Origin: Phoronis australis
Lineage: Eukaryota > Animalia > Phoronida
Length of the DNA stretch: 64,000 nt
Direction: 5' to 3'
Assembly: GCA_002633005.1 (NCBI GenBank)
Contig: NMRA01000074.1
Coordinates: 897,097 to 961,096 of the forward strand
Shown one piece after another: positions 4,717 through 30,018 of the stretch. Made by a program: the position numbers and the translations under genes. The notes beneath the pieces are model-generated. The model was not told the DNA's origin and ran no database searches. It saw nothing but the letters and a program-made list of their open reading frames with translations. Positions within the stretch are counted from its first letter, which is position 1; the number at the start of each line of letters is the position of its first letter.

Positions 4717-7700
4717 TTTATGAGCCCACATACATGTATTTACAATGTATGCATGTATGTGGCTGCATTATGCTCGTCATCCTCGTCCGTCCGTCAGGCG
4801 TCTCTATCTCCAGGCGTTTGACGTATGTACATGAAATTTTGCACACTGTTTTCCTTTCATGGTTGACAGGTACCGGCAGCAGGAACAAACTTTCGGACGG
4901 ATCCGACTACCAGTATGCCCTCTACTGGCAATTTCAGGTTTTTTTACGTTTGCCTCTGTATGGCTTCAAAGGTCTCAACGAATTTTCATGAAATTTGGCA
5001 TACATGTAAGCATATATCGGTGACTAGATGATGCTATCCACCCGTTTTCGGATGAATTCGAAATAGTTTGCGCCTCCTAATGGCCATTTTTACTGTTTCC
5101 CAGTATTTTGGCGTCCGCCACCTCTTATATCAACCAGCCTGCTATAAAGATTATTGTGAAACTTGGAATTTGTATGTATGTTCTCACTACGATCAGAGGA
5201 CGGTTGACGATGATTTTCTAAGGACGTCGGCTTATGTGGCACCTCCTAATGGCAGTTTTGTTTTGTTTTGCGCCCATGGCTATCTTCTAACCTCTCCAGG
5301 CTCTTTTCTAAATTTGAGTAAGGATATTTATATGAAGTTCACAACAGACAACAGCAAATTTCGGATGGAGCGGACTCCCGGTGTGCCCCCTAGTGGCAAT
5401 TTTACTTTCTACGTTTACTCAATGTATTATGCGCCCACATATTTATGTGTGGACGCATTAGCGAAATCTCCGTCCGTCCGTCCGGCGTCCATCCGGCGTC
5501 CGCTGCTCCAAAACCCTTTGACATACGTTCATGAACTTTGGCACATATGTTCCATTCATGAATGGGACGGCATGAGCGAACTTTCGAACGTATCCGACTA
5601 CCGGTGTGCCCCCTAGTGGCAATTTAAATGTTCACGCTTACCTTTGTATCTTCACTGAAAAGTCCTGAACGGATTTTCATGAAATTTGGTATGTAGGCAC
5701 CTATTAGTGAGATGATGCTATCATCCCGTTTTCGGATGGGTTCGGCGTAGTTTTCGCCTCCAAGTGGCAGTTTTAGGTTTTTTGCGGCTATGGCTGTATC
5801 TCCTAAACCGTTCGCAGGATCTTTGGTAACAATATTTATATTATGTTAACAACAGACGATGACGAATTTTGGACGGATCCGACTACCGGTGTGCCCGCTA
5901 GAGGCAATTTTATTTTTCTTATTTTTTTACGTTTACCCTTGTATCTTCAAAAGTCCTCAACAGATTTTCATGAAATTTGATATTATGGCACCTATTAGTT
6001 AGATGACGCTATCCTCCCGTCTTCGGGTGGATTCGACGTAGTTTGCGCCACCGAGTGGCCATTTTTACTGTTTTCAAGTCTGTTTTTTGCGTCCACCCCT
6101 CTATCAACCAAACGGCTCGAAGGATGATTGTGAAAATTGACATGTTTGTGCTTACTATAAAGAGGACAATTGACAATGATTTTCCGGCGATTTCGACTAC
6201 TGTGGCGCCTCCTAGTGGCAATTTTGTTTTTATTGCGCCTAGATGGCTGTATCTTCTTAACTGTTCGCAGGATCTTTACTTAATTTAGCAAGTGTATTTA
6301 TGTAATGTTGACTGTGGATGATGACGATTTTCAGACAGATCTGACTACTGTTGCGTCCCCTAGTGGCAATTTTATTTTTTTACGTTTAACTCAGTATCTT
6401 CAAAGGTTCTCAACAAATTTTCATAAAATTTTAAATATAGACATCTATTGGTGTCATGATGCTATCTGCCTGTTTTTGAATGGAATCGAGGTATTTTGCA
6501 CCACCTAGTGGCCACTTTTGCTATTTTAAATTCTTGTTTTGGTGTCCATCCCTGTATCAACCAAATCATTTGAAAATTGGCATATATAATCTCAGTGTGA
6601 AGACGACCTTTGATGATGGTGACTGATTACTGTGGCGCCTCCTAGTGGTAGTTTTGTTTTGCGCCCATAGTTGTTTATCTTCAACCCATTGCAGGATCTT
6701 TACTAAATTTAGTATGTGTATTTATATGAAGATAACAACGACGACGACTTTCAGGCGAATCCATCGGACACTGTGCCCACTACTGGCAATTTCATTTTAT
6801 TCTGTTTTCCTTTGTTTCTCTGAAGTTCCTTGACCGATTTTTATGAAATGTGGCATGTTCCTGTTCTTGGATGGATTGTATGTTTTGCGCCATTTAGTTT
6901 CCATTTTTATGATACAAATAAATAACCCTAAAAGCACACCATTTGCAATGCATTCGTAGGCGCATTTCAACGCTCCGCGTTGCTCTTGTATAAAAGTTGG
7001 AATATAGGCTTCTATATTGGTAAGATGACGCTATCCTTCCGTTTTTGGATAGATTCGAGATATTTTACGCCACCTTGTTGCTATTTTTACTGTTCTTAAG
7101 TCTGTTTTTTTGACATCCGCCCCTCTATCAACCGAACCATTCTTAGGATGAGTTTGAATACTGGCGNNNNNNNNNNNNNNNNNNNNNNGGATGATTGTGA
7201 AAATTGACATGTTTGTGCTTACTATAAAGAGGACAATTGACAATGATTTTCCGGCGATTTCGACTACTGTGGCGCCTCCTAGTGGCAATTTTGTTTTTAT
7301 TGCGCCTAGATGGCTGTATCTTCTTAACTGTTCGCAGGATCTTTACTTAATTTAGTAAGTGTATTTATGTAATGTTGACTGTGGATGATGACGATTTTCA
7401 GACAGATCTGACTACTGTTGTGTCCCCTAGTGGCAATTTTATTTTTTTACGTTTAACTCAGTATCTTCAAAGGTTCTCAACAAATTTTCATAAAATTTTA
7501 AATATAGGCATCTATTGGTGTCATGATGCTATCTGCCTGTTTTTGAATGGAATCGAGGTATTTTGCACCACCTAGTGGCCACTTTTGCTATTTTAAATTC
7601 TTGTTTTGGTGTCCATCCCTGTATCAACCAAATCATTTGAAAATTGGCATATAAAATCTCAGTGTGAAGACGACCTTTGATGATGGTGACTGATTACTGT

Positions 7701-8650: not shown

Positions 8651-9679
8651 CAGTGAGGTTACTGAACTCTACCCAGGTGCCTTATAGGATCGAACAGGGG
8701 AACGTGCGTTAGAACACCATACGTGTATGACATCTAAAACGGGGCTGGGCTCATGCAATAACCCCTCCACTGAAGAGACGACTGTTTTCACTTACTGGAA
8801 CACTGAGTTGATGATAGTTGTCAGGTCAATGTTGTGCCGTGCATGCAGATGATGGCCACTAGTCCACACTGACGCAATGGTGCGATTAAGGGCCGGTTTG
8901 TAAAGGTCTGGATTTTAGTTTTGTCACTTTTACCAGGTCATGCTTGCACTGAGAGGATTCCAAAAGAAGATTGTGGTGGTAAATAACTATAGTCATGAAA
9001 TACAATGACGCTATCGTAAAGCCATCAAAGCTGTGTCCGACCTTTAGCAATTAATTGTGCTGGCCCGCCGGGCCAGTTACTTGAATATAAGATATCCACA
9101 TAGAGCCTACATGTGAAAGTTTGCAGGCTCTACCCCAAATCCATTGGCCTCCGGGGCAGGGTGAATTTTCGAATGCTGTATCGAAGACCAACAATTGGGT
9201 TTGCCTAAGTTGTCTGCTTTTCTAGGTTTTCCATAAGTATCAATCAAATTAACTTCCAAATGGTTAGCCCAAACATGTGACATATACATGTAATAACGTT
9301 TTTTTCTCTGAGAATTAAGTGTTTTTTTTTGTTTTTTTGTTTTTTTTTTTAATTACCGTTTAGACGCACTTGTCTAGGCTCATGCATTTCAGGTGCACCC
9401 CCTTTAAACACAGAACTAAATTAATCAGTAGGGGAACAATTTCTCGGAAATAAGGGGGGTGGGGGAGAATACTGGGACTTCTGCGTGGCTGCCGGGAGAC
9501 GTGTATGCTTTGAGTAGCTATTTCAACACTCGATATAAGTTTCTGGGTAAAGCAGGCAGAAGTAAGGGGTAAAAAACAAACAAGTGGTCGTGATGACACT
9601 AGTTTTACAGATCAACTTGTCACAATTTTGCACTATTAATTGTGGAGCTTCGTGTTTTTCACGTGGTCTTTCATGTTAA

Positions 9680-9855
9680 TCAAGGACATAGTGTGTCCAT
9701 ATTCTTAGTGTTACAATTGTCGCCATCACAGAACCACCATTTTACAGTCTCCTGTCGAAAGCTCTGTGCTTCGCAGTTCTTTCCGGTGTTCACGAGAAGC
9801 AAAGGGAATTCGGTCGTGCACCCACGATACAAATATCTTCCACCTTCTAAGTCAT
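9680..9855 (-). CDS. Secreted protein exon 5 (C-terminal half of LU domain)
   Basis: Acceptor gattttcag|AT; encodes ...YRGC...C...WWFCDGDNCN...LCP*. The RGC and CxxDxCN motifs are LU-domain hallmarks. Confidence 0.85.
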
Positions 9856-12800
9856 CTGAAAATCAATTGCAGTATGATTACAAAACTGCTAGCCTGTTTT
9901 GTGTTGAAACTTCGCCATGCAGTTATCTAGAACGACTTGCACTTGAATGCACTTGTTTGTTGCCTGTGGAACCAAACAGGACAGTATATAGACTGAACCT
10001 AAGCGGACACACTCCACCACTGAAATTGTCTGGCATACAAATACTGCGCCACGTGGCTGATGCTGTATGCTATATGGTTGGTTTCAACCGGTTACCTGAT
10101 GGGTTGGGCTAGCTCAACACGTAGAGATTTGGGCGTTTCTGGCGGGGGTAATCCACCACTTTGTCTGGCTGTGTTCATTCAGGATACCTAATTGCCAGTT
10201 CACCAGCTCTTAGCCAGAGGTTACCTACGCAAAATGAAGTTTCATTATTCCAAAAATTTCACACCGAGTTTCACACACCCGCTTACCTTCCCGCACGAAG
10301 CAAAAGCCGTTACAGGTGGAAGATGTAATGGTGGCGCCCAGTGTGACGTTGCAGCAATTGGGATCTCCTCCTTCACCGTCAAGCTGGCAGTTACAAGAAT
10401 AGCACTTGCCCGCGGTGACTGAAAAGCAAAAATCCAGTGGAGTCGATCACGCAAGAATCGGTGATGGATGAAGGTATGCTGTAGGAGGACATCGTCGAAA
10501 TTCAACAAGATTTCGGCGCTCAAAACCGCGACTAAACTTTTACTTCTTTCCAATTAGAACCCCTTTTCGTTCAGGCTAAATCATGACAAAAACTCGAGAT
10601 GTGTTGGTCTGGTGCAACACTTCACTGTGCATGTCCATTCATAATAAACATTTTGGTGGATTGATGCAATAAATATAGATTATACCACAATATTAGCGTC
10701 AAATGGCAAATACAACAGCGTAATAACCCATTTAATTATCTCACTAGTGAGACATCATTTCGGCGGGAAACCGAGGCGTGGCACGTCCTGCAAAGGGCAT
10801 TGTACCGACATTTATACGCTATGAAAAATAAGACGCATAATTTCCATAAAAACGATATTTTAATTCAGTGAAAATTTGATCTCGTGTTCTCTCATTTGTA
10901 AATAACCGATGCTGGTATCGTGTCGTCGGGATCCTTTGACTTGAGCATTATACTCAGTTACTAGTGGTAACCTACTTCAGCAGACGATATTTTCCCGGTC
11001 GAAGCTTAGCGTGATAAAATGTGTAGTAAACTATAATAGTTGCTAAACCTTAATTTATAAATTCACTTTGTTTCTATTTTGTTTAAATTTTCAACTGGTT
11101 TTGAGTAAAAGCATCGTTTAACAAAAACACCTCGGCTTTTCTTAAAAGGTCACGACCTCCGACCTCGGGCCTCTGACATACATGTAGAAAGTAGTTACAA
11201 AGCCGAGGCGAGTCGGGAAAGGTATATCGATTCATTGCAATGTTTCTCGTTCAGTATGTGGTATAAATAGATTATTACATGTCTTCAGTCGTTACCCCCC
11301 CCCCTNCTCGTGGATTTTGGAGAATTATCGGCATTGTAACTAGCCTACTTGCTATGTCAGAAGCCCGTGTCGGAGGTCGAGACTTTGAACAGCGCGTTTC
11401 AATGCCGAAATTATTTTTTCGTTGTACTGAACAGTAAAATAGATGCGAGAATTTCCCGTCACAATATACTAACCGAAAACTGAAATCTGAAATTGGTAAT
11501 TTATGAGAGTGTCGCCTCCTCTAGGATTGTACGCAAGGAAATGTCGGAGTTGCGAATCTGTTGTCTATAATCTATGAAATAACTAAATTGGTTACTGAAC
11601 GGTTGTATTGGCCATGATGTTCTGATAATGTGGTTTTACGTGTGTTAAATTCTGATATACGTTCGACAACTAAAACGCCATTTTTATTTGACAAAATTTT
11701 GGCGAATTCTGATTGTCATTAATTCTGACAATACGTTTATCCAAGTTTGGCAGAGTTCCGTTTTTGTATGTTTAGTTTATTTTGAAAACTTTAAGATGTC
11801 AGTACAATGAGACTATAAATTACATGAGTTGCATTCATTGATATTTGATTCAGCAGGTGTCAGTATTCAATCATTGTATGTTCTCCAATATTGCGAGAAC
11901 TTAATTACAGTAGAAATTTCTTCTAAAAATCCAAGAAATTAACCATTAAACTGCAGAAGTTTTCAAAATTCGATGTAGACATAATGTGACCCTGCTGTGA
12001 CGATTAGCCAAGTTACGTAATCAAATATTATATCAAACCCATCATATCATGCTAGAATTCAGTTACCAACAATTTTAGTATGATATTTTAAGTATTTCTT
12101 CTTCACTATGTGTAATTTCAATCAAGAAATAAACACAAAATTCAAATATAAAGTTTTTGTGTGACGTCATCTCCGACATTGTGTTGTTCTACACCAGCTG
12201 ATAGCACTAGTGGTCTCGAAAACTGCTCGTCTGAATATTATGAAAAGTCAGGTTGCATGTGGGGAGGATGCTGTAATAGCAATGGGACGGACAAAATATC
12301 TCAGTTTTGGCGTTTCTAAAAAAAAAACAAGATCGCTCAGAAAATCAGAAATGAAACGGGTTCGTACGTCGGGGGGAGGGGGNGGGCGCTGTGCTCCGTG
12401 AGCCCAGTTTAAAGAATTGTGCATTGATCTGTCGGAGAAACGGAGAATTGATGTAGGTTTCAGCAATGTGTAACTGCATTTGATGGAGAGAAAGTATATT
12501 GTGTTGCAACAATGCTGGGAACAGTTGCATGAACATCAGCGTCAAATTGAGACCGAGACGATGAATGTGATTGCAGTAAGTTTCCATCAGTCTATTATTG
12601 TTAAAAATTTTGTGGGAATCCATGCTATTCACATATACATCATACCACTCAAATATTCAGAGATCACAACCGCAGCTGGCACAGGGGCTTGAGTCGGACG
12701 CTGGACCGAAATCAGTGGTCGACGATTGACAATGGTACAGAATAAGCCGTTGCGGGAGGATTGAGTTCGTTCTGTCTCAAACACGCAAAGTCTGCTGATT

Positions 12801-15800
12801 TTGCGAGGTCTAACTTATTACCTGTTTCAACTATGGCCTTGGTGTAGTCTTCACTCCCATCTCCATACCTGTCTCTATAATACTCGTCAAGCTCGCGCTC
12901 CAAGTCTGTGACTTACAAAATCTCGAACCGCCATTGCATACATATTGTACTTTCGACTGATCAACATATTCCACTGAAAGCGTCACTTGGCGGGAAACCA
13001 AAAAGTCATAATTTCTCTTTAAAATTCAAATTTCCTCAATTATTTCCCAAAATATGTCTAGTCTTTGTGTTACAAATTAGTAAACGACATGGTCTGAAGC
13101 CTCAAAAAGTGCAAAAATCCATTGTAGGAACGCTTTAAACATAAGTATGCGAACAATAAGATTCATAAAAACAACTCGCAGATGTTATCCTATTAGTCCT
13201 TTAAAATCTCGATACACGCACGTACAAATGTACTTTGAATTCCACATTAGGTCCTAAGATGGCCTGTATCCAATATGCAAAAGATTGGGATTTTTCTAAT
13301 GACACTCATCAGAAGCAAGCGTTAAATTAATACATTTTATCACCTACATAATTATTTCTTGATAATTTAATTTACAATGGTGAGATCAACATCAAGGAAG
13401 CACTTAACAGTTGCTTACCATTCTTCTGTTTTTCAGCATCAGTGCACTCGGTGGGAAGCGGCGTCTGTCGTATACAGGTATGACCAGCTTCTCGGTCTCC
13501 CGTGCATGGGCCCAAGTCGGAGACTTTGATATTGTCCGGAACTCTCTTCGTTTGCGTACAATTGTAGGGATACAACGTCTTGTCGAGACAATAGTAATAT
13601 CGGCAGTCGTTATCAGTATCCCGGATGTGCTTCATGTTGGTGACATCATTGCAACCTGAAACAGTTCCGCAAATCTAGTTCTGGTAAGCAGAGAAGTTGC
13701 CGTACATGCGATTGTCAGGGGTGGATCAAGGATTTTGAGTTAGGGGGCCCAGGATAGAGTATTATCCAGGATTTTGCCCGTAAGATATTCGCAACCCCGA
13801 ACTACTAAGTGGAATCTGGAGAATTTTGCGGGGCATCAATGGCCCTCTTAGCCCCCCATCCGCCACTGAATGTATAGTGGCTATTAAGATTACTTGTGAT
13901 CCTAGGAGAATATTCAAATTTGGCTAAATTTCATATCTCAAAAATGGCTGCTTTGGTTAATATAATTTTTTGACACCATGCTTTGTTGCATCCTTCCCTG
14001 AAATGATTTTATTAATTTCTTTTTAAGAATCAAAAATAGAACGTTCATGACTTTATAAAAATTGAAGTAAAACAAAAATAAAACGAAACAAAATCTTAGA
14101 AATCAGAAACAGAATTTTTTGAAGTCTCATCTGATATCAAATAAAATGTGGATATGTTATTGAAACCGTTCCTTCGCTATCAACGTTCCCTTTGTTTTTT
14201 TGTTTAATTTCACTAAAACGTCATGATCACGTCACCAATTCCAAGGTAGATTGGTAAAAAGTCCACAGTCAAGTTCTACTGGCTTTCTAGTAAGTTTCAG
14301 AAAATATATCTTTGTTGTTTTGTAGATATTTCGCAAAATACATAAACTTGTCAGCAGGGTCCTACATGTACATAACCCTAAGGCTTGACGCACTTAAATG
14401 GGGAAACAGCACTTCTGTGAAATCTGTGAAACACGTTTTAAAAAAGTGGTCAATGATTTTCAGTAAATCTACTTGTTCTTTGTCTTCGCCAATTGCCTCA
14501 TCTAACTCGTCACGGAAAATAACTTTATTCGTCCAAATTTTAAAAATCAGCTATTTAGTGAACAAATGAAAATCAAACTAAAGCGCTTTAAGAGGCGGCA
14601 CTTATCGAACTCGAAAGAAAACCTTAGAAATGAAGTCACCGAAGAGAGTATCACTCAAGTCGACGACACTCATGATAAATAGATCTAGGCCTAGCTGATG
14701 ACACTGACGCTAAGAACAACGACAATGCACTCATGCCAACTTATTGACAATGACGTCACAGTACAACTAATGACAACAACACCACTCCCAGTGACAATGA
14801 CTCTGCTTTAATTCACAGAAGACTGATACCCGACTGCCGACGACGACAGCAACAGCAACTGAATGGCGGACGTGGCCATTGATCGTATTAATACCCGGCA
14901 GTTTGCGTACGACGTCCACAGCAACCCCTTTGCATAGACACCGGCGCAAAAGGCTAACCACTAGAACGTTACGTCACTGGCGAGCTGGGGAGACCATCCA
15001 CCCACCCACAGCCGCGACGTCATCTGTGTCATCGCACCCAAAGGATCATTCGATAACTAAAACGTCGATGCACAGGCAACGGAATGTATGGGCCGTTCTT
15101 TGGTAGGCCGGAATTCGTCAGAGAAATCACTGTCGACGAAATGCCGGCCACAGACACGGAGATGTTTTACGCCCTCACACTGGCTATTAACAGCGTACTT
15201 TTCATTCTTCACTACCACGAGCCACTTCCTAAGCATTTCGGGCTCTCGAGGAAGTCAAAAAATACGATATACCAGCTTTCTTCGCAGCTTCATAGTTCGG
15301 ACAAGCAAGAACGATGCGATGCAATATAAGGGCATTCACTCTGCAGATGAACCACTGACGTCGCTGCGCAGTTTCTCACCTTCCTCACAGGTTAACGCGA
15401 CACCTCTCGGTAAGATGAAGTCGACTGTATAAGAGGCGATGTGGATATAGATCGAGTAAGACGGTAAAAAGGCTAATTAAATCGAGTGGCGTTCTCCTTT
15501 AAGGCTAATTGTAATACATTTTTTTAAATATGCTGTTTAGACACATTGGCCTGCACATTCAGCAAAAATTGTTTCGGTTTCAAATAAACTCAATTTAGCA
15601 CAGTTCTTGCTTTTTAGTGAAAGAACGTCGGTTTGGAATCGGTGTTACCAACACGTATGGTTTTATGTGCAACCTGTCAATCAAATCAAATCAAATCTCC
15701 CGCCAATGCCCCCCCCTCACCACCACTGTGCAACTTACTGTTGTCTGCCAACCACACACTCTGCTTGTTAAACCTATTGTTTAAGGTATGGTCTCAAAAC

Positions 15801-17500
15801 TCCGAACACTTTTATTCATTATTATGTTAGACTGTGAAGGAAAATATGCAAGGGTGACGTTTGCGTGTAAACCAACAACAGGCAAGACAAGAATGCCCGC
15901 TTCAGTAGAAGTAAAACGTAGGTGGAACCCCAAAGCGACCAAAATGCCTGCAGCAGAAGTTTGCCCACCGAACGCGGTTTCGTTTGGATTAGGAACATCG
16001 CCGAGACTTCAGAAAAATAATAAAACTCTAACGAGTTAAACTCAAGTTCTTATCTTTGACAAAGAAATCGAGAAGAAAACGATGATCGTTTTCGACTGTT
16101 GACACAATTTTGCGCTTCTCAGCAATTGCTCCAGTGGTTGAGCACGGTTACAAACTTCGAACCCGTTATCTCGAGAAGAGTTCACTGAATTTCCTGACAA
16201 CTCAAAATCTTAAAGTAAGTACCGATATCAGATTTGTATTCCCTTCATTTTTCATGTTTTACTAAAAATCAACTGTCATGGTTTACTTAATCGTCATTTT
16301 TTATGTTTATTTAAAAATCAAGTGTAATGTTTTCCTTTTAAAAGTGCTTCCTAAACACTGAACGAATTCTTACATCTAAAATATTGGTTGCCAGTTATGA
16401 AAACGATTTTAGTTTGTTTTTATCAAAGTTTCAACACAAAAAGGTTGTTGTCAATTTCAGGAGTAGATTCGTGTCGACCCTAGCAGTGCTGTAGTGGTAA
16501 AATGAGAGATAAGTAGGCGCCTAAAGCCCGCCGTATCACCTTGAACACTGAACGTAACTTACGGTGGGTAGGCGCTACGTTTAAATGCCAAAAGGTGGTT
16601 GGCTGCACCTACGTGCGCCTACGACCCACTACAGCACTGGACCCTAGTTTCAGAAAATATACCGTTATGAGCTAACAGACGTTGCACACTTAGAAATTCA
16701 AGAAGACTGCAATTTAATTATGGTGCACGTGACAATATGTGACGCGCTTATCTTATTCACGTCAGGTTAGAACATAAACTCCTTCATAACAGTTTATGAA
16801 ACAAACGGCGATATCCCATTCCTTGGATTTGTTACATGTACCTATGCTTAAAAACGAACAAGAATACGGTTTTCAAAAATTCGCCGATACTTTGTGAGCT
16901 TTTTGGACTTAAGAGTGCGGCGCTTGCCAGATAATGTTTAATCAAACGATAAGTACAACTAATTTATGAAGAACAATGAACGTCGGTCGTTTTTACCTGA
17001 ACCACCAAACTAATTTGAAAAAATAAAATGTTTTAAATTTTTCAAAAATATTGATTTCATGTTGAAAGAGTCTTTCGCGAACATACTTTTTACTGAATTT
17101 GTTTGTGTTAAAATTCGTTTTATGGAGGTCTTGACTAAAATGAGAAGATGGGATCTTAGAAACAGCAATAAACTGGCTTTCTGTCAATGAACGAAATTGA
17201 CTTTAAATTGATTTTACAAAGCCAATCTCAACTTCTTCCTTGGTTCCTCGGCTTCGAATAAGCTGACACTTCGCCAATGCTACACATCATACTGAACGCA
17301 AGAGATGGTCCGCCATGACAAACCTCTGTGTCGCAAGCCCCGTAAGACACTAAAATCAAAACCTGTTTTTGTGAATGCCCAGCTCAGCGATTACACGGAA
17401 CATAGCTATACTTACACTTTATGGGCTTCATATCTGCTTGCGACATCCCGTATGACGCCGGAGCGAGAACTACACAAATTGTTATCAAAAGCGTGAACAT
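9680..17500 (-). CDS. Secreted 237-aa protein: signal peptide + CBM14/chitin-binding-like 8-Cys module + acidic Tyr-rich linker + Ly6/uPAR (three-finger) domain; 5 exons
   Basis: Exons are 17500-17416, 13655-13419, 12905-12822, 10418-10287 and 9855-9680. All four introns are GT-AG and phase 1, totalling 714 nt with no internal stop. Protein: MFTLLITICVVLAPASYGMSQADMKPIKCCNDVTNMKHIRDTDNDCRYYYCLDKTLYPYNCTQTKRVPDNIKVSDLGPCTGDREAGHTCIRQTPLPTECTDAEKQKNDLERELDEYYRDRYGDGSEDYTKAIVETVTAGKCYSCNCQLDGEGGDPNCCNVTLGATITSSTCNGFCFVREDDLEGGRYLYRGCTTEFPLLLVNTGKNCEAQSFRQETVKWWFCDGDNCNTKNMDTLCP*. Confidence 0.8.
10287..10418 (-). CDS. Secreted protein exon 4 (N-terminal half of LU domain)
   Basis: ttttgcttttcag| ... 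|gtaagc, 132 nt, phase 1-1; encodes KCYSCNC...NCC...TCNGFCFVRE. Confidence 0.85.
10670..11330 (-). mobile_element. Non-autonomous interspersed element, inverted homolog of 25999-26877, inside intron 3 of the secreted-protein gene
   Basis: Long reverse-complement identity with 26160-26877, e.g. ATACCACAATATTAGCGTCAAATGGCA vs TGCCATTTGACGCCAATATTGTGGTAT and TTTCCCGGTCGAAGCTTAGCGTGA vs TCACGCTAAGCTTCGACCGGGAAA. It retains only one arm of the terminal palindrome. Confidence 0.8.
11447..11578. repeat. Dispersed repeat, direct copy at about 19987-20108
   Basis: Shared GAATTTCCCGTCACAATAYACTAACCGRAAACTGAAA...GCCTCCTCTAGG...GAGTTGCGA..CTGTTGTCTAYAATCTATGA. Confidence 0.7.
12822..12905 (-). CDS. Secreted protein exon 3 (acidic/Tyr-rich linker)
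   Basis: cacag|AC ... ACAG|gtaata, 84 nt, phase 1-1; encodes DLERELDEYYRDRYGDGSEDYTKAIVET. Confidence 0.7.
13419..13655 (-). CDS. Secreted protein exon 2 (chitin-binding type-2-like cysteine module)
   Basis: tgtttcag|GT ... AATG|gtaagc, 237 nt, phase 1-1. The pattern C-x15-C-RYYY-C-x5-YPYN-C-x17-C resembles CBM14/peritrophin-A spacing and aromatic residues. Confidence 0.8.
13716..13868. mobile_element. Short MITE with CAG(G/T)GG(T/C)GGAT-type termini
   Basis: 5' CAGGGGTGGAT ... 3' ATCCGCCACTG with G/C-run subtermini; no clear TSD. Confidence 0.5.
16484..16639. mobile_element. hAT-family MITE with perfect 8-bp TSD
   Basis: TIRs CAGTGCTGTAGTGG / CCACTACAGCACTG are flanked on both sides by GACCCTAG. 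A second copy lies at 57048-57199. Confidence 0.85.
17416..17500 (-). CDS. Secreted protein exon 1 (signal peptide)
   Basis: aaATG start; hydrophobic MFTLLITICVVLAPASYG with an S-Y-G (-3,-1) cleavage site. The donor T|gtaagt is phase 1 and joins GT to give Cys. Confidence 0.8.
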
Positions 17501-17555
17501 TTCTGATGCTCTGGATTTCTCAGTGGTCGACACGAAGCAAATTCAAATTTAACAC

Positions 17556-17586
17556 GGACTGTTGAAAGTAACACGCCTCTTTTATA
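17556..17586 (-). promoter_or_regulatory. TATA box and Inr-like element of the secreted-protein gene
   Basis: Minus-strand TATAAAAAG begins at 17586, with CAGT about 26 nt downstream (17561-17558) and about 60 nt upstream of the ATG. Confidence 0.55.
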
Positions 17587-18498
17587 AACGTTTCACAACG
17601 GCGCCATGGAAACACTTGACGTTTTATTGGAATGCGCTCTCCCATCTACAACATTTGTTTCAAAAGTTATGATTGTTTTAAAATTCGCATTATGCAAACG
17701 TGCTCACAAAATCACAAGCTGACAGTTGTTTTGTATTCATTTAATATAACTGTTTCCCAATTGTTCGCGACAAGTGATTAGAAGCTATTTCTAATTAAAA
17801 CTATATTCAGCGACAACAACAATTAGCCTGAAACCAGTGTCACTAACCGTTCAAGGAATAAATTATAATTGTTTGTCTTAATGGCCGGCGTAGCAGCCAA
17901 GGAGTGCGGGGGTGGAATGATGCGTCTATGTCGGCCCTCTTCAAAGTAAAATGCCCCAAGATGGCCACTGATTTTAATCCCCATAGTCGCCAACAATGTC
18001 GTGTTTAGCTCGTGCCCTCCCGGTGAATATTTCTGGCTATGCCAGAGTGGTGTTTAAACTTTGGAAATTGTCGTACATGTAAGTCGTAATAATTGTTCCT
18101 GGATGAAAGTAACACGCGAAATAATTGTTCCTGGAGGAAACTATCACGCGAAACATTAAAGAAACAATTTAACCTTGCAAACTGTCGTTCGAATTCGTTG
18201 GTTTACCGAAACTCAGTGCGAGATCTCAGGATATTTAGTATCACGAGGGGGAGGCCGACCTTTACTCAGATATTAGCAAAAGTCCCAAAAAACTATCTGT
18301 GTTTTTTGCCCCTCCTCTTTATATTCCTTTTGCTGGAGCGCAGATGAGCTGCTTTGGGATGAGCTCAGCTCAAAGCTTTGTGGTGGTTACCTGCAGACAG
18401 CGAGTAAAATGCTCATTGACCTGCTGCTTACGTTCGCAGTAAACAGCGCAAATGTAAAACATGAGCAAACGAAAGGGATGTGTGTCTTGTGGTCAGGC

Positions 18499-18768: not shown

Positions 18769-21700
18769 TTCGATAAACACTTAGCTTGCCTGCATGCTGT
18801 TGGGGTCCACGTTGACCAAGTTAATGAACTCCAGTTAGTGAGATAGTTACTCACCCATCGCGAGGTAAAATCCTAAGCTAAAACTTCAATTTTTCTCAAG
18901 TCCTTTTCAAGAAAGGATATCCTAAGTTTGACCTAAAATTTTTACTTAAGTTTTGTCTCAATTTCGACTAACTTAACGGATGTGGAAGTTTCAAATTTTG
19001 AATGTTGAGTCATATCTTAGAATTAAGCAAAAAATGAATTTAAGCCAGTTTCTTAGAACAGGTCCCTGAAATGCCAACTTCGCTATCACTCCGCTGAGTT
19101 TGCGCCGAGCTTGAATGGCATTTGTCTGCATTTGTGTTCGTTTGTTTGCTCCGGTGTTAGTTCTTGCTGCTACGTGATTTATTGTTAATGAAAGTGTTTT
19201 GCAATTTCGCCCATTTTCAACTGACTTGCATCAAGTTCATATCCCTAGAGAGTCCGTTTTTACTTCTTGATGGCGTATGATTTTTCCAGATGCAAAAGAT
19301 AAGTTATTTAGTTCATAAACAATCATCATTTTTGCATACCTGACAGATTTAAAAAATACCATATAATTCTGAAAACCAAGAGTGTTACCAAATTGTGAAT
19401 AATATCAGGGTGTAATAAACTAGAATGGTTACACAAATGACTAGTTAAAAAGCAGGGAAATAATTTATACGATTGAAACGAGTTTTACCCAATAAAGACA
19501 AAGATTTTAGAGCACGGATCTCCCACAGTTGCTGTGAAGAATTTAGTCAGGCGTTCATCCATCCATCCATCATAATATATTATTTGAAACTTCGGTGCAA
19601 TTTGATACAAAAACATTTTTCAGGCAAAACGTGATTAACTACTGTAAATACTCCAACTACCTAACTGAAATTAGCATATAAAGGTGTTTGGTAAACAAAA
19701 ATGGGCAAACATCTATAATTGTGTAGCTTTGAAACGTACAGTGGATAGGCCATAACATGGGAAGCAGTGGAAGAAATATATTAGTGACCCTTATACATGT
19801 ACATGTAGTGTATGCTACCGCAAACAAGAAAAACTTGAACACCTTTTTATGTATTTTAAGTTACTAAAGAAAGTGGACTCTGGTAAATAACGATATTCAC
19901 GAAGAGTCAATGGTATTTAGAACACTTCCTGCGTAGCTGTCATTCGAAACAACTGGAGTGAAATTTGATACTTCCAGACAAAAAGCGAATTTCCCGTCAC
20001 AATACACTAACCGGAAACTGAAACAAATAATTTATTAAAGTGGCGCCTCCTCTAGGTTAGTACACAAGAAAATGTCTGAGTTGCGAGACTGTTGTCTACA
20101 ATCTATGATGTAAATCAGTTGTTTGATAATTGGACGGAACGCGTGTTTATAAAGGATTTTTCATGTGGCGAGTAACTGTTGTATGTTGTGAGTACAAGAC
20201 AGTTTAAACCTGGTAAGCGTTTGATAACCCCATCATTAAAGATGCATGTACATGTATGAGATCGAGTCGGAGCTCCGTCGTAATCTCGAGTTTGCCGCTC
20301 GAATCTCAGGATCATCCAATATAAACCTGGACTGGAATTCCATTTACGTAAATAATATAAAGATCATACGCGCACCCAGCCTTTAGATTGTTGGGCTCGA
20401 ATTTCTGACCAAGTGCACCTCTTGCGTCTGCGCCTTTTTAGTGGACTGTTGTCTTACTTCCTGGGACTTTTTGTTTCTCTGATGCGGACCTTTTTGCCTA
20501 ATTCACAAAATGGGGGGATCCTTTGAGCCTCCCGAGCCCCCCGAGCCCCCCCTGGGTGAGCGCATGCAATCACGTTTATCTTGAGTTCGTATTACTGAAG
20601 CCGGTAGAATTATTGAACGTGTTGAAAAAGAACTTGGTGTTTAACCTCGAGTTCGGAGGTTGAACACCTGGCCCACACAAAACACCACCTCCGTGATTAC
20701 CTATACATATCATTTTAGTTTTAAAACGTTTGTCAATTTTATGGCGACAAGAAAGCATACTTTTTGTTACTTTGACTTTTACATGTCGGGATCGGCGTGC
20801 TGCAGCCGTCTCCACCTTTATGAATACCGATCATTCATTTATAGCCGGCTGCAATACTTTAAAGTTATCAAAAGACCACGAGGGTGGACTCTGGCTCCAA
20901 CAGGCTAGTTTTAGCCCTTAATTGTCCATAACAGCGAGGACAAATGAGCAGCGCTTATGGAGACGCGCAATGAAACAAAATGTTCTGCAAAGTTAATTTA
21001 CCACTTACAATTTATATGGTGATATATAAGTGTTGGTCAAAGGCCCGTAATCTTCAGATTTAAATGCAACCAAGCCAAGTTTCTCAGGCTCTCTCCCACC
21101 AAGCTGTTCATTAATTTACGTTTAAAATAATTCTAACTTCAAGACGTCAATCCATTTGAATTGCCCATCCAGCTTTCCCTTATTAATCCAAAAGTAGTCT
21201 TACTTAACTATGCGATACTGTACAACATACGTTTGACGGGCATCTAGCCGAGTGTGTAGTTCATCGTTTGCGTCGCGTATAAATATGAACAAGTGATCGC
21301 TTTATATTTAGGTGCTGAACGGAGCAAGGGTTTATGTGTACCATTTCTGTTCAGGATATCGTTTGTTCAAAGTGTAGCATATTTTGCATGTTTCCTGGTG
21401 TTGGTGGAAGCATATGAGGCTCTATGAGTACAGATGTAGTTTCCAAACGAGGTAAAACCACTTTGCGACAGCCGTAGTCAGTGTGTAGCTTAATGCGAAA
21501 CCAAAATTAAGTAGTTTCTGTGTGAAAATTCCTAAATAAAGGTCCATTTTTCCAAAATACACTGCAATACGTTTTGTCAGAAAACGTGTGGCAGAGAAAC
21601 GTCCTTCCGTTGGGACCCATCTTGACGGTGCTGACTAGAGAAGATAACGCGTATATTTTTCATTTATGTATTATAATACTCCTTTATCAGTATATTTAGC

Positions 21701-24700
21701 ACGGGAAGCCTATAAATTTTTCGACTGCGGCCACAGACTTATTACTGCGGCCGCAGACTTACGAAGAAACATAATACATTTTACCTCCCAACTTGACTTG
21801 TTCAACCTTAAAAGGATACCAAACCGGATTCGGCCAATTAACATATAACAAAACGTCTTTCCCATCCGGTTCTCTGGAACAAAATTTTGCTTTGTAACCC
21901 TCGACAACACTCAAAAGTTTGGAACACAATTTGAAAACTCCTGCCCGAAGTCTGCTAAACAGGCAAGCGTGACCTTAATTCACTTTAGGTGACTTACATG
22001 ACAACTCTAGGGAAAGACCACGCACCAAGAACAATAACATCCAATCTGTGACACAGTGACTATGAGTTTTAGTCGAGTCACGCTTCTATCATTCAAGTGG
22101 TACGACAACGATGTATTACTAGCGGGTGACAGGACGACTATTGGGTGTACTCTATCACCTTAACAGGGTTTAGTGTCCCTTTAAAATCAAGTGACCTTAA
22201 TGCAATCGATAAACTGGAACATGAACAATCAACAAAACGCATGCACAAATTAGCACGCATTTATCCCATTATCTCAACCTGGCGCGCCAATTTGTTATAC
22301 GGTAAACGACATTACCCTGAAACAATCTTATCACAAATACTCAGAAATTATGTTCATCCTCAGAGTGATCGCCAAGGACCTCAATCCGGATTTTCAAAGT
22401 ACACCCGGCCACGTGTCTTACCTCTTGCACGTGTTCTATAACGCCGTTAAAGGTAAAAGTGCGAAGTAGGCCTAGGTCTATCAAACACTCATAATAGCGC
22501 ACAGGACAACAACTTAAAAGAGCGCCCACAAAAGTAAATCTCTTGGGTAATGAGATTTCTTTCTCCTAGAACCACGCGGTAGGGCGTTTTCGCTAATATT
22601 GTTTTTTCTCACGCACTCGAGAATTCCTTTTTTACGAGCTTTACTTGATTCATACCCAACGCAAATTTGCTAACGCACTTCTTTTACCGTGTACCGCATA
22701 ATTGCGCTACTGTACATTATTGTGTTCAGTGTTACATGTACGTTGTGTCTTCAGTCAAAGTCTTTCATTGGCTATTTCACGTCCTTGAGATGTGTTAAGA
22801 AGGAAAACTGGCGACCTCTTCCCGTGGCAGTTGCATGTAAAGCATTTTAAGCGGTTACAAACCAACTCGAGACAACGGATACTACGGCCACTGTGTAGCG
22901 CTAGTGTTGACACTAACTTCATGTATGTGCGAATAATGCGCCTGTATAAGTGTTCTAACACACCAAGATGTCACTTACCGAATGTACGTTAATTTGGTCG
23001 ATTTACCAAATATTTTACCTGGCAAGTAACAGCCTCAGAAGACCTGGACCGACACCTTCACCCTCCGCGAAGAAGCCTTGGGACTGACAGCCACGCCAAA
23101 AGGAGGCAGCGCGAACGGCTCATGAGGAACATACCAGGTAGCATTCAACAACGCTAGGTGCCTCCCATGGACCTCACTAAAAACCAAGATTCGTAATATT
23201 ATGTGAGATACTGCCGTGTATTTTCAAAGAGAGCACGTGATTTTGGTTACATTTTCTTGTCGCGAGACAGCTGTTAAACTCTACAAAGATGTCATTTGAT
23301 TGTTTAAGGGCGACTGTATCCGTACCCAATAGCAGGTGGACCCAACCTTGCCGATGGTATAAAACTGACCTAAATCAATCGTCGCTAGCTCTCCTTATGA
23401 ACAGACGAGCGAAACTGACACTGCCACTATATATGTGACGCCAGTGCACGGTGGCAGTTGACACGTCCAGCGTTCAGACTCGGTGCAGAGTTCAACAGGT
23501 ACATCAACTTAGGATTCCTGCAATGCCTTAGATTTGACACAAAGCTCATTCTGTATTAGTTCTTCATAGTCTTTGGTCAATTTATAGTTACTCTTAAGTA
23601 ACCAACGTGATATTTGTGTCGTAGTTTTAATCTTTGTCACGTGATCTGGACTGTAGATTGTGATACAAGAAATGAACCGTATTTATCTGAACTCTTTTCC
23701 ACTTAACTTTCTGAATCTCTGGCGTCAAACTGGAGGTTATTTCAGGACACCACAGGAACTGGCATTTTGTATTTCCTCCAGACCAAGTCGTGACCTAAGG
23801 TTGAGTCAACTTGTCGATCGGACTGAAGAGAAAATTAACTGTCAGTAACTGTAACTGTAACTGTTGTTCCCTATCTCAGATATCGAGTGGCGGATTTAGA
23901 GGAGAGGAAAAGGCCGGACAAATGCACGCTTAAAAGTAAACCATATTCCATTTGGCAGTTAGGGGGTGCAAATTTCTGATGGGCAAAAACCTGGCTAATA
24001 CTCTGCCCCGCCCTCCCCCCTAACTCGAAATCCTCCTCCCCTGATATCACTTCAAACCTGAGAAGGAAACTCGACAAGACCAGTTTTATTTAACTGCAGG
24101 TGGCCTAAACAAAACTTGATTTTGACAAAAAGTGCGGGATTAAAGCCACTTTAATTTGGCGTGTTGTGTTCAAATGTTGCATAATGACTAAATGAACCAG
24201 TGTTGCAATGGTCTTGATGTGTGGTTGTTCAACACAAGGAATACATCGGATTTCTGGGATATTAGTTTATTGTTACATGTACTTTCGAAGTTTTCCACGA
24301 ATCTATGTTTCGTATTAATACACAAAAGAACGTGATCGAGTTATCATAGGGTACATACATGTACATGTGTGCTGACAAAGAATTTTACAGCATTACATTT
24401 CTTGGTAATGAAGTATGCAGTGAGGTCACGACATATCAGTTTACAAAGACTCATGATTTGTTTCATGAAGTGGTTTACGACGTGAGATTGAAATTCGGTT
24501 TTACGCTCCACACTATTTCTGAAAGTATGTAACTTTCACTGGAGAAAAAATGCAAAGGTCTCTGATAATATAAGTTTAAAAGCTACTTACCGAGAAATTA
24601 TGTAATAATTTTTTCCAGACTGTGATACGCTCAAAATACTACTTGGATATTTTTTCAGCAAGTGTGAAGTAGAAGCGTAGGATCAAATTTCTGTCTAAGT

Positions 24701-25998: not shown

Positions 25999-26877
25999 TA
26001 AATATAGATTATTACATGGCGAAGTCGTTATCCCCCGTTATCTAGAGCCCGAGTGGATTTTGGAGAATTATCGCCCGAGGGGCGTTAGCCCCGAGGGTGA
26101 TAATTTTCCAAAACCCACGAGGGCTCTAGATAAGGGGGATAACGGCTGAGAACATGTAATAATCTATTTATACCACACACTAAACGAGAAACATTGCAAT
26201 GAATCGATTTTTACCTTATCTGACTCTCCACGGCTTTGTAACTACTTTCTATGTCAGAGGCCCGGGGTCGGAGGTCGTGACCTTTTAAGAAAAGCCGGGC
26301 TATTTTTGTCAAATAATGCTTTTACTCAAAACCAATTGAAAACTTAAATATAATAGAAATAAACTGAATTTATAAATTAACGTTTACCAACTATTATAGC
26401 TTAAAACACGATTTTTTCACGCTAAGCTTCGACCGGGAAATTATCGTCTGCTAAAGTAGGTTACCACTGGTAACTGAATATAATTTTCAAGCCAAAGATC
26501 CTGACGACACGATACCCGCATTCAAACTGGAGATCGGTGATTTACAAGTAAGAGGACATGAGAGAAATATTTCATTGAATTAAGATATCATTTTTATGGA
26601 AATTATGTGTCTTATTTTCCGTAGCGTATACGTACAGTACAATGCGGTTTGTTGAACGTGCGATTATTGCGCGTGCTCATTTAAGTATTCTATTTTCACA
26701 CTTGATGACGTCAGTCGCTGCGTGGTGTAGTGGTTAAAGTCGGAGACCAGCAATACTAGGGTCCCGGGTTCGACCCCGTCCTCGGTTTCCCGCCAAATCG
26801 TTATCTCACTAGTGAGATAACTTTATGGGTTATTACACGGTTGTATCTGCCATTTGACGCCAATATTGTGGTATAAA
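25999..26877 (+). mobile_element. Non-autonomous element with a ~170-bp terminal palindrome (possibly Crypton-type) and an internal tRNA-like insert
   Basis: 25999-26170 folds into a long imperfect hairpin (TAGATTATTACATG...TTATCTAGAGCCC...GGGCTCTAGATAA...CATGTAATAATCTA). TTTATACCAC near 26167 is inverted relative to GTGGTATAAA at the far end. Homologous to 10670-11330. The superfamily call is tentative. Confidence 0.7.
26714..26785 (+). other. tRNA-like Pol III cassette (SINE head or pseudo-tRNA)
   Basis: A box TGGTGTAGTGG (26723-26733) and B box GGTTCGACCCC (26767-26777) lie at tRNA spacing. The T-stem pairs but the acceptor stem does not. TGACGTCA is immediately upstream. Confidence 0.6.
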
Positions 26878-27518: not shown

Positions 27519-29780
27519 TCAGTTTTTGACCTTCCTAGTGCAATCATCACTGTTGCAAGTTGTCTCAAAATAAACTCTTCCATTTTCGTATACATAAGGC
27601 GACCCCTGCCAAGTACACTTACTGAAGAAAAAAACAAGTCTCGAGTCTATTAAGGTGGCGACATACAAACGATGCAATTTGTTCACCAGAGTCTTGAATT
27701 CGGACACTTGGTTGACAGTATTTGACATGAGAGCAATCAGGAAATTGAGAAGAAGGATCGCAACCACGAAGACATACGTCATGTGTAGAAATACGACAAC
27801 AATGCCCTCTGGGGTGGATATTGGAACCTGGTCATCAAACGTTACCATATTTAGCATTGTTATAAACGTTGTGTACAAGGACTCCGGGAAGGAAATAAAC
27901 CCCGAATGCATGCACTGGCTCCCGAGTATAGCGTAAAACGTCATTGCGAAGGAGAAAAGGACGATGAGTTGAATAAACATAAAATTGACCATCCCAGTTA
28001 TCATCTCCTGGAAAGTGATGACGAAGTGACCGATAATGGTATTCAGACGAAGAAAATAGAAACAAGACCACAGATTGGTGATGATTGCAAAGGCGATACA
28101 AATAAATAAAACGCTGCGGCAATGATTGTCGTTGTGGATATCATAGAAGATCATCAAGACGACGGCTGATGCGCACGTGACGTGAACAAGGTCACACATT
28201 ATGTAAAAGCCACACCTGGCAACATTTGTAGATTTCATTTTGTCCGCCATTATTGGAGTCAAAGTTGTCTTTTTATCATAGATCTGAATGAGGTCTATAC
28301 TATGCCCGATAACAGTAGAGAAAAGCCGAAAGAATATCAGAGGCATGAGGACACAGAGTATTTTATGTATATCCAAACCCGTGAAACTGTTTTCAGTACA
28401 GCTAGAGTTGAAGTCGCCAACAGTCATATTGGACATGTTGTTTGAACTCATGAAGTCGTCAAAACGAAATTTACGCCTCATCGAATGTAAAGACAGAGAG
28501 AGCAAATCTTGAAAGAAAGCAAAGAACAGGGCAACATATGCAAACCTGTAGAGCATCCAGAAACGTATCGACCATCTCATAGACTTGTTGTAGGAATCAA
28601 CCCAATTCATCAACGGTGAGTACAAAAAGTCCTGGCTTCTTGAAATTTGAGAGAGTCTCTCATAAGACAAGAATTGGAGCAGAAAAAACGGATTGAACCT
28701 TGATCGCTTTCCGTGACTGGAAACGTAGTCTGTGACGTCATAATAGGCAATGGCCCGATGTCCTGCATAGGTCTTGGTATGCCTGTAAACGCCTTCCGTA
28801 TTCATGGTTTCATTGGCCATGTCTAATGCGCCAATTTTAAACGCCAGTTCTAATGGCCGGAAACCCCTCGCGTCTTCTGCCATAAGTAGTTTGTGCAGTA
28901 TTGATCTACCCTGAATGGAGCTGCTCTGAATGAAGTCCTTAGCTAACCGAAATTTCTTCACAGCTATTTCACTTGACGACGAGGAAACACTCAAAGTGAC
29001 AAGTCTGTGAATGAAATTCCAATCACAAAAGGAAATGCTCAGGACTGAAGCGCCCATTTTAATCAGATAATCGGCAAGTTTGATATTGCCGTTACACAAT
29101 GCCGTGTCGACAGGATTTGTACAGGCGAGTTGTTGCTGCCCATGATTCCGATTTTTCTGGTTTGCGGCGTAATAACTGATGAGCTCCTTAGAAAACGTTG
29201 AGCTGTAAATGGCGCGCATTGTTCTTTCATTTTGGAAAACAAATTTTCCGCGAACCATCCGCTGCCGCTGGAAAGGATCGACTCCCGCTAAAATGGCAGC
29301 AATTTTTTCAATGTTTCCCCCGTTCAACTCCTGAAGCCAAAACCCATACTCGTCCAAGTACATAACGAGGGATTCTTTGTTTTGAAGTAAAATCGCTGGA
29401 GGTTCATGCATTTCATCTAGATATTCCTTGGCCACTTTCTCGAGATCGGTGAGATGCAGATTTCCATGACTCTTCAGTGTTTCTGAAGGAGCTGGTGAAA
29501 CTCTATTTTCTCTCACAAAGAACAAAGAGCCATCAGGTGATGCCTTTGAGTCTGAAAGAATGAGTGTAGGGCAACATGAGATGCACTGCGAGACTCTCAG
29601 TGGCGGGGTACATTGAAGACTCTGCTCTGTCAGACTAATATACATGTACTTTAAATGACTTTTGAATAAGGTTGGGATTACGATGATCCGTAACCCCTGG
29701 TTGGTAACGGGAGACCCGTCTCTCCAATATCCGAAGACGGGTTGCCCGTTATTGACCTTAAACATAATGGTGCTGCCCAA
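27519..29780 (-). CDS. TRPV-like (TRPVL-type) transient receptor potential channel: ankyrin repeats + 6TM; one large exon, true 5' boundary probably the acceptor at 29626 or 29621
   Basis: 753-codon ORF. It has ankyrin-like NPVDTALCNGNIKLADYLIKMGA and GFRPLELAFKIG, the TRPV beta-linker GHRAIAYYDVTDY, six hydrophobic segments, S4-S5 FLRLNTIIGHFVITFQEM, pore helix SLYTTFITMLNM, and S6 ILLLNFLIALMSNT (TRPV LLxLNxLIAMMxxT). The first ~50 codons look intronic. Confidence 0.9.
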   Translation of the reverse strand: MGSTIMFKVNNGQPVFGYWRDGSPVTNQGLRIIVIPTLFKSHLKYMYISLTEQSLQCTPPLRVSQCISCCPTLILSDSKASPDGSLFFVRENRVSPAPSETLKSHGNLHLTDLEKVAKEYLDEMHEPPAILLQNKESLVMYLDEYGFWLQELNGGNIEKIAAILAGVDPFQRQRMVRGKFVFQNERTMRAIYSSTFSKELISYYAANQKNRNHGQQQLACTNPVDTALCNGNIKLADYLIKMGASVLSISFCDWNFIHRLVTLSVSSSSSEIAVKKFRLAKDFIQSSSIQGRSILHKLLMAEDARGFRPLELAFKIGALDMANETMNTEGVYRHTKTYAGHRAIAYYDVTDYVSSHGKRSRFNPFFLLQFLSYERLSQISRSQDFLYSPLMNWVDSYNKSMRWSIRFWMLYRFAYVALFFAFFQDLLSLSLHSMRRKFRFDDFMSSNNMSNMTVGDFNSSCTENSFTGLDIHKILCVLMPLIFFRLFSTVIGHSIDLIQIYDKKTTLTPIMADKMKSTNVARCGFYIMCDLVHVTCASAVVLMIFYDIHNDNHCRSVLFICIAFAIITNLWSCFYFLRLNTIIGHFVITFQEMITGMVNFMFIQLIVLFSFAMTFYAILGSQCMHSGFISFPESLYTTFITMLNMVTFDDQVPISTPEGIVVVFLHMTYVFVVAILLLNFLIALMSNTVNQVSEFKTLVNKLHRLYVATLIDSRLVFFFSKCTWQGSPYVYENGRVYFETTCNSDDCTRKVKN

Positions 29781-30018
29781 GGGTATGACCTACATGTACA
29801 TCAGTCACCAGATCTCTCAGTGATGAGGATTTCAGTATATTACACCTACACCCCGAGAAGTGGAAACGCTGGATACGAGAAGCTACATGTATTAAGATCC
29901 AAGACCATAGACCTAGTCTTAACAGAGATCCGGGACTTGAAGTGTATTTAGATCTGATACGGGATTATCCCCGACATCAGCGAGTCCCCGGCACTGTTTT
30001 TATCGTTTTACTCTACTA

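What the first reader, a model, noticed from the sequence alone, without database searches (positions are those of the whole stretch)
9680..17500. Hidden gene fusing a chitin-binding-like module to a soluble three-finger (Ly6/uPAR) domain
Seen: five short exons, mostly missed by the ORF track, join through four phase-1 GT-AG introns into an unbroken 237-aa frame. It has a signal peptide, a TATA box, 8 Cys in the N-domain and 12 Cys in the C-domain. Known: CBM14/peritrophin-A domains bind chitin, LU/three-finger domains (Quiver/Sleepless, Lynx1, SLURP, snake toxins) modulate nAChRs and K+ channels, and phase-1 symmetric exons typify exon shuffling. Inference: I do not know this architecture. 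It could tether a channel modulator or toxin to chitin (prey or pathogen cuticle, or the animal's own matrix), or be a matrix protein. The CBM14 call is by eye.
Basis: partly seen in the sequence, partly recalled or inferred. Interest (0 to 1): 0.82.

Follow-up and report, generated by a model that had tools for sequence, protein, structure and literature searches.

The report
Secreted three-finger protein, chitin-module-like head
RNA reads show that this invertebrate gene is real and strongly expressed in one sample, but it has four exons rather than five, and it encodes a likely secreted protein that joins a weakly chitin-binding-like module to a likely three-finger domain, so it would most plausibly tie a partner protein to an extracellular sugar-polymer matrix, although the usual chitin-gripping tryptophan is missing.

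Summary
The gene is real, but the model needs correcting. Stranded RNA-seq shows three junctions (643, 427 and 545 reads in run X1). Exon 2 splices straight to the three-finger exons, so both domains lie on one mRNA of a 209-aa protein, not 237 aa. Expression is about 350, 15 and 0 reads/kb/million in three runs. The C-domain is Ly6/uPAR (LU)-like: two phase-1 exons, an intron at the likely loop-2 tip, a C-x4-C-N end and no GPI tail, but consensus cysteine 8 is missing. The CBM14 call stays a lead: Pfam E 0.14-4.6, below cut-off and N-half only, with no aromatic residue in the hairpin that binds chitin in solved CBM14s. No homologue was found, and the fold models were too poor to use. A 2026 survey lists LU fusions (Kunitz, C1q, FReD, Ig, MAM) but none with chitin modules in its main text. 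This scan noted an LU + chitin-binding protein before, in Owenia (unchecked). Best reading: a secreted matrix adaptor (0.45); toxin or channel modulator is unsupported. New variant of a known kind.

The parts
17581..17586 (-). TATA-like box (TATAAA)
   Evidence: Sequence; RNA 5' pile-ups lie 39 and 52 nt downstream, at 17542 (46 molecules) and 17529 (51) in X1
17416..17542 (-). Exon 1: 5' UTR, ATG at 17500, predicted signal peptide (about residues 1-18) and 10 further residues; phase-1 donor
   Evidence: junction to 13655 in 643 X1 and 25 X2 reads. Signal peptide judged by hydropathy and by eye; no SignalP available
13419..13655 (-). Exon 2 (237 nt, symmetric phase 1-1): 8-Cys module, residues 29-99, CBM14-like in its N-half only
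   Evidence: Depth about 650 in X1; Pfam CBM_14 E 4.6 and 0.14, below cut-off; Atlas nearest clusters CBM14 at 0.86, lead only
12822..12905 (-).
   Evidence: No joint listed; covered only by divergent two-strand reads; skipped by 427 + 24 reads
10287..10418 (-). Exon 3 (132 nt, phase 1-1): N-half of the LU-like domain, C113-C147
   Evidence: Junctions 13419>10418 and 10287>9855; cysteine map; alone it gives no Pfam or PDB hit
9619..9855 (-). Exon 4: C-half of the LU-like domain (C164-C208, C-x4-C-N motif), stop at 9682-9680, short 3' UTR; no GPI signal
   Evidence: Pfam QVR E 0.002-0.004, below cut-off; Atlas best named hit is the TGF-beta receptor II ectodomain at 0.80, lead only; 20 molecules begin at 9619 and sense depth is 0 at 9300-9583

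Best explanation
This is a spliced, strongly and sample-specifically expressed four-exon gene whose 209-aa product is likely a secreted adaptor that would dock on an extracellular polysaccharide matrix (chitin or another glycan) through its likely CBM14-derived N-module and would hold a partner protein there through its likely three-finger (LU) domain. Shown: the transcript, its exon structure, the cysteine layout, the lack of a membrane or GPI tail, and the roughly 20-fold or greater difference between runs. Inferred: secretion; the two folds; that the gene arose when a symmetric phase-1 exon was inserted into the first intron of an ordinary three-exon LU gene (as with the extra exon of GPIHBP1); that binding, if any, uses the five clustered tyrosines (Y48, Y49, Y50, Y57, Y59) rather than the canonical C-terminal Trp; and that the matrix anchor takes the place of the GPI anchor most LU proteins use.
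For: One mRNA carries both modules. About 350, 15 and 0.1 reads/kb/million in X1, X2, X3, a level and patchiness that fit a gland or matrix-secreting tissue (inference). Hydrophobic N-terminus, no C-tail, three N-glycan sites, pI about 5. Two weak lines point to CBM14: it is the only Pfam family listed at E<=10 for exon 2, and 10 of the 10 best named Atlas hits share a family or clan with the best one, CBM14 (0.86). The exon layout equals the LU archetype plus one extra exon (PMC6600238). Precedents: insect Retroactive is a three-finger protein needed for chitin organisation (PMC3561106 passages); ChtBD2 proteins are the most abundant structural entries shown from a tubeworm tube proteome (PMC8476170 passages); a CBM14 can switch to another glycan (PMC8104879 passages).
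Against: CBM14 is below cut-off (7.9 and 12.8 bits against 22.1) and matches only profile 1-33 of 53. The Atlas score 0.86, 157 shared features and recognition 2251 are all under the tool's own thresholds, and a third of shuffled proteins also get ten of ten. The peritrophin-A spacing fails. No aromatic residue lies in residues 62-107, although CHIT1 ChBD lacking Trp465/Asn466 loses chitin binding. TcRtv itself is reported to act indirectly and mostly inside cells. No homologue was found to test conservation. The tissue of X1 and the species are not known to me.
Confidence: 0.45

Rival explanations
1. The N-module is not a carbohydrate binder (a degenerate CBM14 or an unrelated 8-Cys fold), and the protein is a secreted two-headed protein-protein ligand, for example a growth-factor or protease binder.
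For: All sequence tests for CBM14 membership failed or were weak. Der p 23 is a CBM14-fold protein reported without chitin binding (seen only as a reference title in PMC12609036). LU loops generally bind proteins.
Against: Both weak signals name CBM14 and no other family; five tyrosines cluster in the predicted beta-hairpin.
Confidence: 0.25
2. It is a soluble immune recognition protein: the N-module binds microbial or parasite glycan and the LU domain signals to host cells, like the molluscan LU + C1q and LU + fibrinogen fusions.
For: LU fused to recognition domains is reported in molluscs (PMC13719153 Results); tachycitin is an antimicrobial CBM14 (passage).
Against: No paralogue in the 64-kb window. 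No divergent reads on exon 2 at 80% likeness and only one fixed difference among the rows shown, unlike expanded immune families. Near-absence from one of three RNA runs.
Confidence: 0.18
3. It is a chitin-tethered ion-channel modulator or toxin acting on nAChRs or K+ channels.
For: Small, disulfide-rich, likely secreted, high in one sample; nearest Pfam family is Quiver; the 2026 survey speculates that secreted invertebrate three-finger proteins may act as toxins.
Against: QVR/SSS is GPI-anchored and acts through loop 2 (PMC4735452 passages); this protein has no GPI tail and its likely loop-2 tip is acidic (4 D/E; LU pI 4.5), whereas alpha-neurotoxin loop-2 tips are basic (recalled, not from a call). 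[quoted passage not shown] No sign of duplication or hypervariability.
Confidence: 0.12

Closest known systems
Multi-domain invertebrate LU fusions: LU + Kunitz (cnidarians), LU + C1q, LU + FReD, LU + Ig, LU + MAM (molluscs, arthropods); PMC13719153, 2026
   Same: LU domain joined to an unrelated extracellular module; lineage-restricted occurrence; the Kunitz fusion is described as secreted
   Different: The partner here is a CBM14-like 8-Cys module; 'chitin', 'peritrophin' and 'CBM' occur 0 times in that paper's main text; its supplement could not be read
Retroactive (Rtv) of Drosophila and Tribolium (PMC3561106)
   Same: Three-finger protein tied to chitin matrix building
   Different: Rtv is a single LU domain with a hydrophobic C-tail that works mostly inside cells by trafficking Knickkopf; this protein has no tail and carries a separate N-module
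GPIHBP1 (and SP-10)
   Same: LU gene with one extra exon placed between the signal exon and the two LU exons (PMC6600238)
   Different: Their extra exon is a disordered segment and GPIHBP1 is GPI-anchored; here the extra exon is a disulfide-rich module and the protein has no anchor
CBM14 / peritrophin-A (PF01607; CHIT1 ChBD, tachycitin, Avr4, Der p 23)
   Same: N-half pattern of Cys, a Tyr-rich strand, Cys, nine residues, Cys matches profile 1-33 of 53 weakly
   Different: C2-C3 spacing is 4, not 5-6; the C-half does not match; no Trp and no aromatic residue after Y59; 8 Cys
Quiver/Sleepless family (PF17064)
   Same: Best Pfam match of the last exon, profile 45-86 of 86
   Different: Below cut-off (fragment only); no GPI anchor; 12 Cys with consensus Cys 8 missing

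Membership tests
Ly6/uPAR (LU, three-finger) domain | Mature domain encoded by two exons flanked by phase-1 introns | tested here: met
   Exons 10418-10287 and 9855-9680, phase 1, junctions in RNA; feature from PMC6600238
Ly6/uPAR (LU, three-finger) domain | Internal intron at the tip of loop 2 | tested here: met
   Intron falls in codon 152, between C147 and C164; numbering these as consensus Cys 5 and 6 is by eye
Ly6/uPAR (LU, three-finger) domain | 60-90 residues, Asn right after the last consensus Cys | tested here: met
   C113-N200 = 88 aa; N200 follows C199
Ly6/uPAR (LU, three-finger) domain | Ten consensus cysteines (1-5, 2-3, 4-6, 7-8, 9-10) | tested here: not met
   Nine can be assigned by eye; the position before C194 is Phe, so Cys 8 is absent, and three extra Cys occur (C118, one of C129/C130, C208). 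The review lists rare 7-8 losses and extra bonds, so I file it as LU-like, not canonical LU
Ly6/uPAR (LU, three-finger) domain | Three-finger fold | tested here: inconclusive
   Only the 57-aa last-exon piece could be folded: pLDDT 47, best Z 2.2
Quiver/Sleepless, Lynx1-type GPI-anchored LU modulators | C-terminal GPI signal | tested here: not met
   Stop 9 residues after N200, no hydrophobic tail; no downstream exon in RNA
Quiver/Sleepless, Lynx1-type GPI-anchored LU modulators | Modulation of nAChR or Shaker channels through loop 2 | not testable with these tools
   Feature from PMC4735452
CBM14 / peritrophin-A | Pfam PF01607 gathering score 22.1 bits | tested here: not met
   7.9 bits (78 aa); 12.8 bits (48-aa N-part); no hit for two other sub-ranges
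CBM14 / peritrophin-A | Six-Cys spacing consensus (two versions, both recalled, not from a call) | tested here: not met
   Neither pattern matches; only a relaxed one does
CBM14 / peritrophin-A | Exposed conserved Trp in the C-terminal hairpin (CHIT1 Trp465, tachycitin Trp55, CfAvr4 Trp100) | tested here: not met
   0 F/W/Y in residues 62-107; feature
CBM14 / peritrophin-A | Distorted beta-sandwich fold | tested here: inconclusive
   Single-sequence model pLDDT 42; Foldseek no E<=0.001; VIA best Z 2.5
CBM14 / peritrophin-A | Binds chitin | not testable with these tools
   Needs a binding assay

The most novel reading that the evidence does not exclude
A three-finger protein has traded its lipid (GPI) anchor for a chitin anchor: the N-module binds chitin through a non-canonical tyrosine hairpin and displays the LU domain on a chitinous tube, cuticle or gut lining. 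With the unchecked Owenia note (opposite domain order), this would mean lophotrochozoans coupled LU domains to chitin modules at least twice, defining an unrecognised class of matrix-displayed three-finger ligands.
Probability: 0.25. Interest if true: 0.65.

Novelty: new variant of a known kind. Interest (0 to 1): 0.4.

Why it matters
LU domains were described as only 'proto-modules' that rarely join other domains (PMC6600238), and a 2026 survey began listing invertebrate exceptions. This gene adds an RNA-verified, small, single-copy-looking case with a clean one-exon insertion, and it is easy to express and test. If the head binds chitin without the canonical Trp, it would show a new binding surface on the CBM14 scaffold and a way to display three-finger ligands on chitin matrices. 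If it does not, it is one more lineage-specific secreted protein of modest interest.

Tried and rejected
Five-exon 237-aa model: rejected. Two separate genes, or read-through to 12712: rejected; a script search for a hidden signal-peptide exon in the last 2.4 kb before the LU exons gave only 2 poor-donor candidates. Homologue searches gave nothing real: exon 2 among longer proteins, 0 of 3 candidates; last exon among longer proteins, 0 of 1; HMMER over 1.84 billion representatives with exon 2, 3 hits, all long repeat proteins without the cysteine frame, judged spurious. Proteins of similar length to the exon pieces were not searched in the word-index tool, and 57-78-aa queries have low power, so these blanks do not show that the gene stands alone. 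PDB sequence searches with the three pieces gave only chance hits or none. AlphaFold2 on single exons gave pLDDT 42 and 47, and three fold searches on them were uninformative; CBM14 and LU entries were not listed, which excludes nothing. The spliced protein was not folded and the whole LU domain was not scanned against Pfam, because those tools take unbroken window stretches; I did not run a complex prediction. No own genome is held, so copy number beyond the window is untested. No RNA holder was listed by the word index; the three raw-read runs came by species label. The source of the skipped segment was not identified: no Pfam hit, 2 weak metagenome loci of 487 pattern matches, and the better one shows no convincing related ORF. 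The two-finger toxin (Argos-like) fold was considered after and set aside on intron phases (0/2/0 or 0/1/0 there, 1/1/1 here); an SVWC identity was considered from memory and set aside because no SVWC Pfam hit was listed. Phylum was not settled: the neighbouring channel gene's relatives are 25-31% identical and only one is named, an annelid.
Full report
Observation. Joined in a script they give an open 237-aa frame with 8 cysteines in the N-module and 12 in the C-domain. A TATAAA lies at 17586-17581; the N-terminus is hydrophobic and the C-terminus is not.

RNA evidence. Four runs were offered by species label, three of them raw paired RNA-seq from one study, and about 18-19% of each raw run was read. 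Laid on 9300-17800 they show three spliced junctions, all with the first mate on the + strand, which in most stranded libraries means a minus-strand RNA: 17416>13655 (643, 25, 0 reads in X1, X2, X3), 13419>10418 (427, 24, 0) and 10287>9855 (545, 18, 0) (3 weaker joints were not shown). The contig set X4 shows none of them. 5' ends pile up at 17542 and 17529, and 3' ends near 9619. So the third exon is a repeat relic, included in under about 0.7% of transcripts, and chance supplies such pseudo-exons (3 candidates in this 3-kb intron). The real gene has four exons and encodes 209 aa. Its level is roughly 350, 15 and 0.1 reads/kb/million in X1, X2 and X3; the tissues are not given. The one coding difference shown is at 13530 (648 of 648 reads in X1; I71V).

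The C-domain. PMC6600238 (passages and section 2 read) defines LU domains by two phase-1-flanked exons, an intron at the loop-2 tip, 60-90 residues, an Asn after the last Cys and ten consensus Cys. The first four are met: 88 aa from C113 to N200, with the intron in codon 152 between C147 and C164. The ten-Cys pattern is not: Cys 8 is absent and three extra Cys are present, which could pair off as C179-C208 and C118-C129/C130 (inference by elimination). The last exon matches Pfam QVR at E 0.002-0.004, below cut-off, as a fragment; the Atlas's best named hit is a TGF-beta receptor II ectodomain at 0.80, which the review counts as an LU domain. There is no GPI signal and no downstream exon. I call it LU-like with good but not structural support.

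The N-module. It is one symmetric exon. CBM_14 is the only Pfam family listed, at E 4.6 for the whole exon and 0.14 for its first 48 residues, always on profile positions 1-33 of 53; two other sub-ranges give nothing. The Atlas's three nearest clusters are CBM14 at 0.86, under the tool's thresholds. Two recalled peritrophin-A spacing patterns fail. Solved CBM14s use an exposed C-terminal Trp (PMC4844120 and PMC6128652 passages), but residues 62-107 here contain no F, W or Y; the aromatic residues are Y48, Y49, Y50, Y57 and Y59. A CBM14 that binds pectin and not chitin is known (PMC8104879 passages), and a reference title reports no chitin binding for Der p 23 (seen in PMC12609036). Single-sequence models were poor (pLDDT 42 and 47) and the fold searches uninformative. 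The module is therefore 'CBM14-like, membership not met'.

Relatives and context. No true homologue was found, with low-power queries. No paralogue is visible in the window or among reads on exon 2; the genome is not held. The animal is likely a lophotrochozoan: the only named relative of a neighbouring channel gene is an annelid protein at 30% identity, and earlier unchecked notes on this genome say lophotrochozoan, mollusc or horseshoe worm. I could not decide among these.

Mechanism. The exon layout is the three-exon LU archetype plus one inserted phase-1 exon, as in GPIHBP1, so exon insertion is the simplest origin (inference). I favour a secreted adaptor that docks on a polysaccharide matrix by its tyrosine-rich hairpin and binds a protein partner by its LU loops (0.45). 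Precedents are Retroactive (PMC3561106 passages) and the ChtBD2-rich tube proteome of a tubeworm (PMC8476170 passages). Rivals are a purely protein-binding ligand (0.25), a soluble immune recognition protein (0.18) and a channel modulator or toxin (0.12). The last rests on fold family only: QVR/SSS is GPI-anchored and works through loop 2 (PMC4735452 passages), and a 2025 preprint says three-finger toxins are apparently not known outside snakes (passages).

Novelty. PMC13719153 (abstract and whole Results read) surveys 387 invertebrate genomes and lists LU fused to Kunitz, C1q, FReD, Ig, MAM, thioredoxin, permease and 7TM domains; 'chitin', 'peritrophin' and 'CBM' occur 0 times in its main text. 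Phoronids are not in its table, and its supplement, which could hold such a protein, was not readable. Full-text searches for the combination gave 4 papers, 0, 0, 8 and 130 with 15 listed; by title and abstract start none describes the fusion, and I read only those cited above. This scan has noted a secreted LU + chitin-binding + His/Tyr protein in Owenia, in the opposite order (e1-7276731; unchecked), and several molluscan LU fusions.

Verdict. A real, RNA-verified gene with a corrected structure and a domain pairing I did not find in print. It belongs to a known kind (LU domain fused to another extracellular module), one of its two domain calls is weak, and function is untested. New variant of a known kind; interest 0.40.

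Noticed in passing
window 12712-12912 (-): The skipped segment lies in a 66-aa stop-free frame, and divergent transcribed copies exist elsewhere in the genome; it looks like a coding relic of an unidentified mobile element. No Pfam hit; metagenome search gave 2 weak loci.
   Followed up: partly
window 15060-15254 (-): THAP-domain fragment (Pfam E 8.9e-6) in intron 1, under a pile of divergent two-strand reads; likely a DNA-transposon relic.
   Followed up: partly
window 27519-29789 (-): Intronless 756-aa frame for a divergent TRPV-like channel (PKD_channel E 6e-7; ankyrin-like part seen by eye); nearest relatives are only 25-31% identical.
   Followed up: partly
window 49791-50138 (+): Exon of a DNase I-like gene (PDB 1dnk E 2.8e-15).
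   Followed up: partly
window 10680-11329 and 26099-26876; 16484-16613 and 57048-57183; 11449-11593 and 19987-20124; 13715-13819 and 23941-24044: Dispersed repeats, 76-88% identical, with second copies inside the window.
   Followed up: no
window 13530: All RNA reads carry C on the + strand where the window has T (648 of 648 in X1, 18 of 18 in X2), giving I71V; an allele or an assembly difference, no DNA run to tell.
   Followed up: no
window 5056-5616 (+), 44153-44575 (-), 47273-47743 (+), 56133-56624 (+): Long stop-free frames with no Pfam hit at E<=0.1; possibly exons of unrecognised genes.
   Followed up: no
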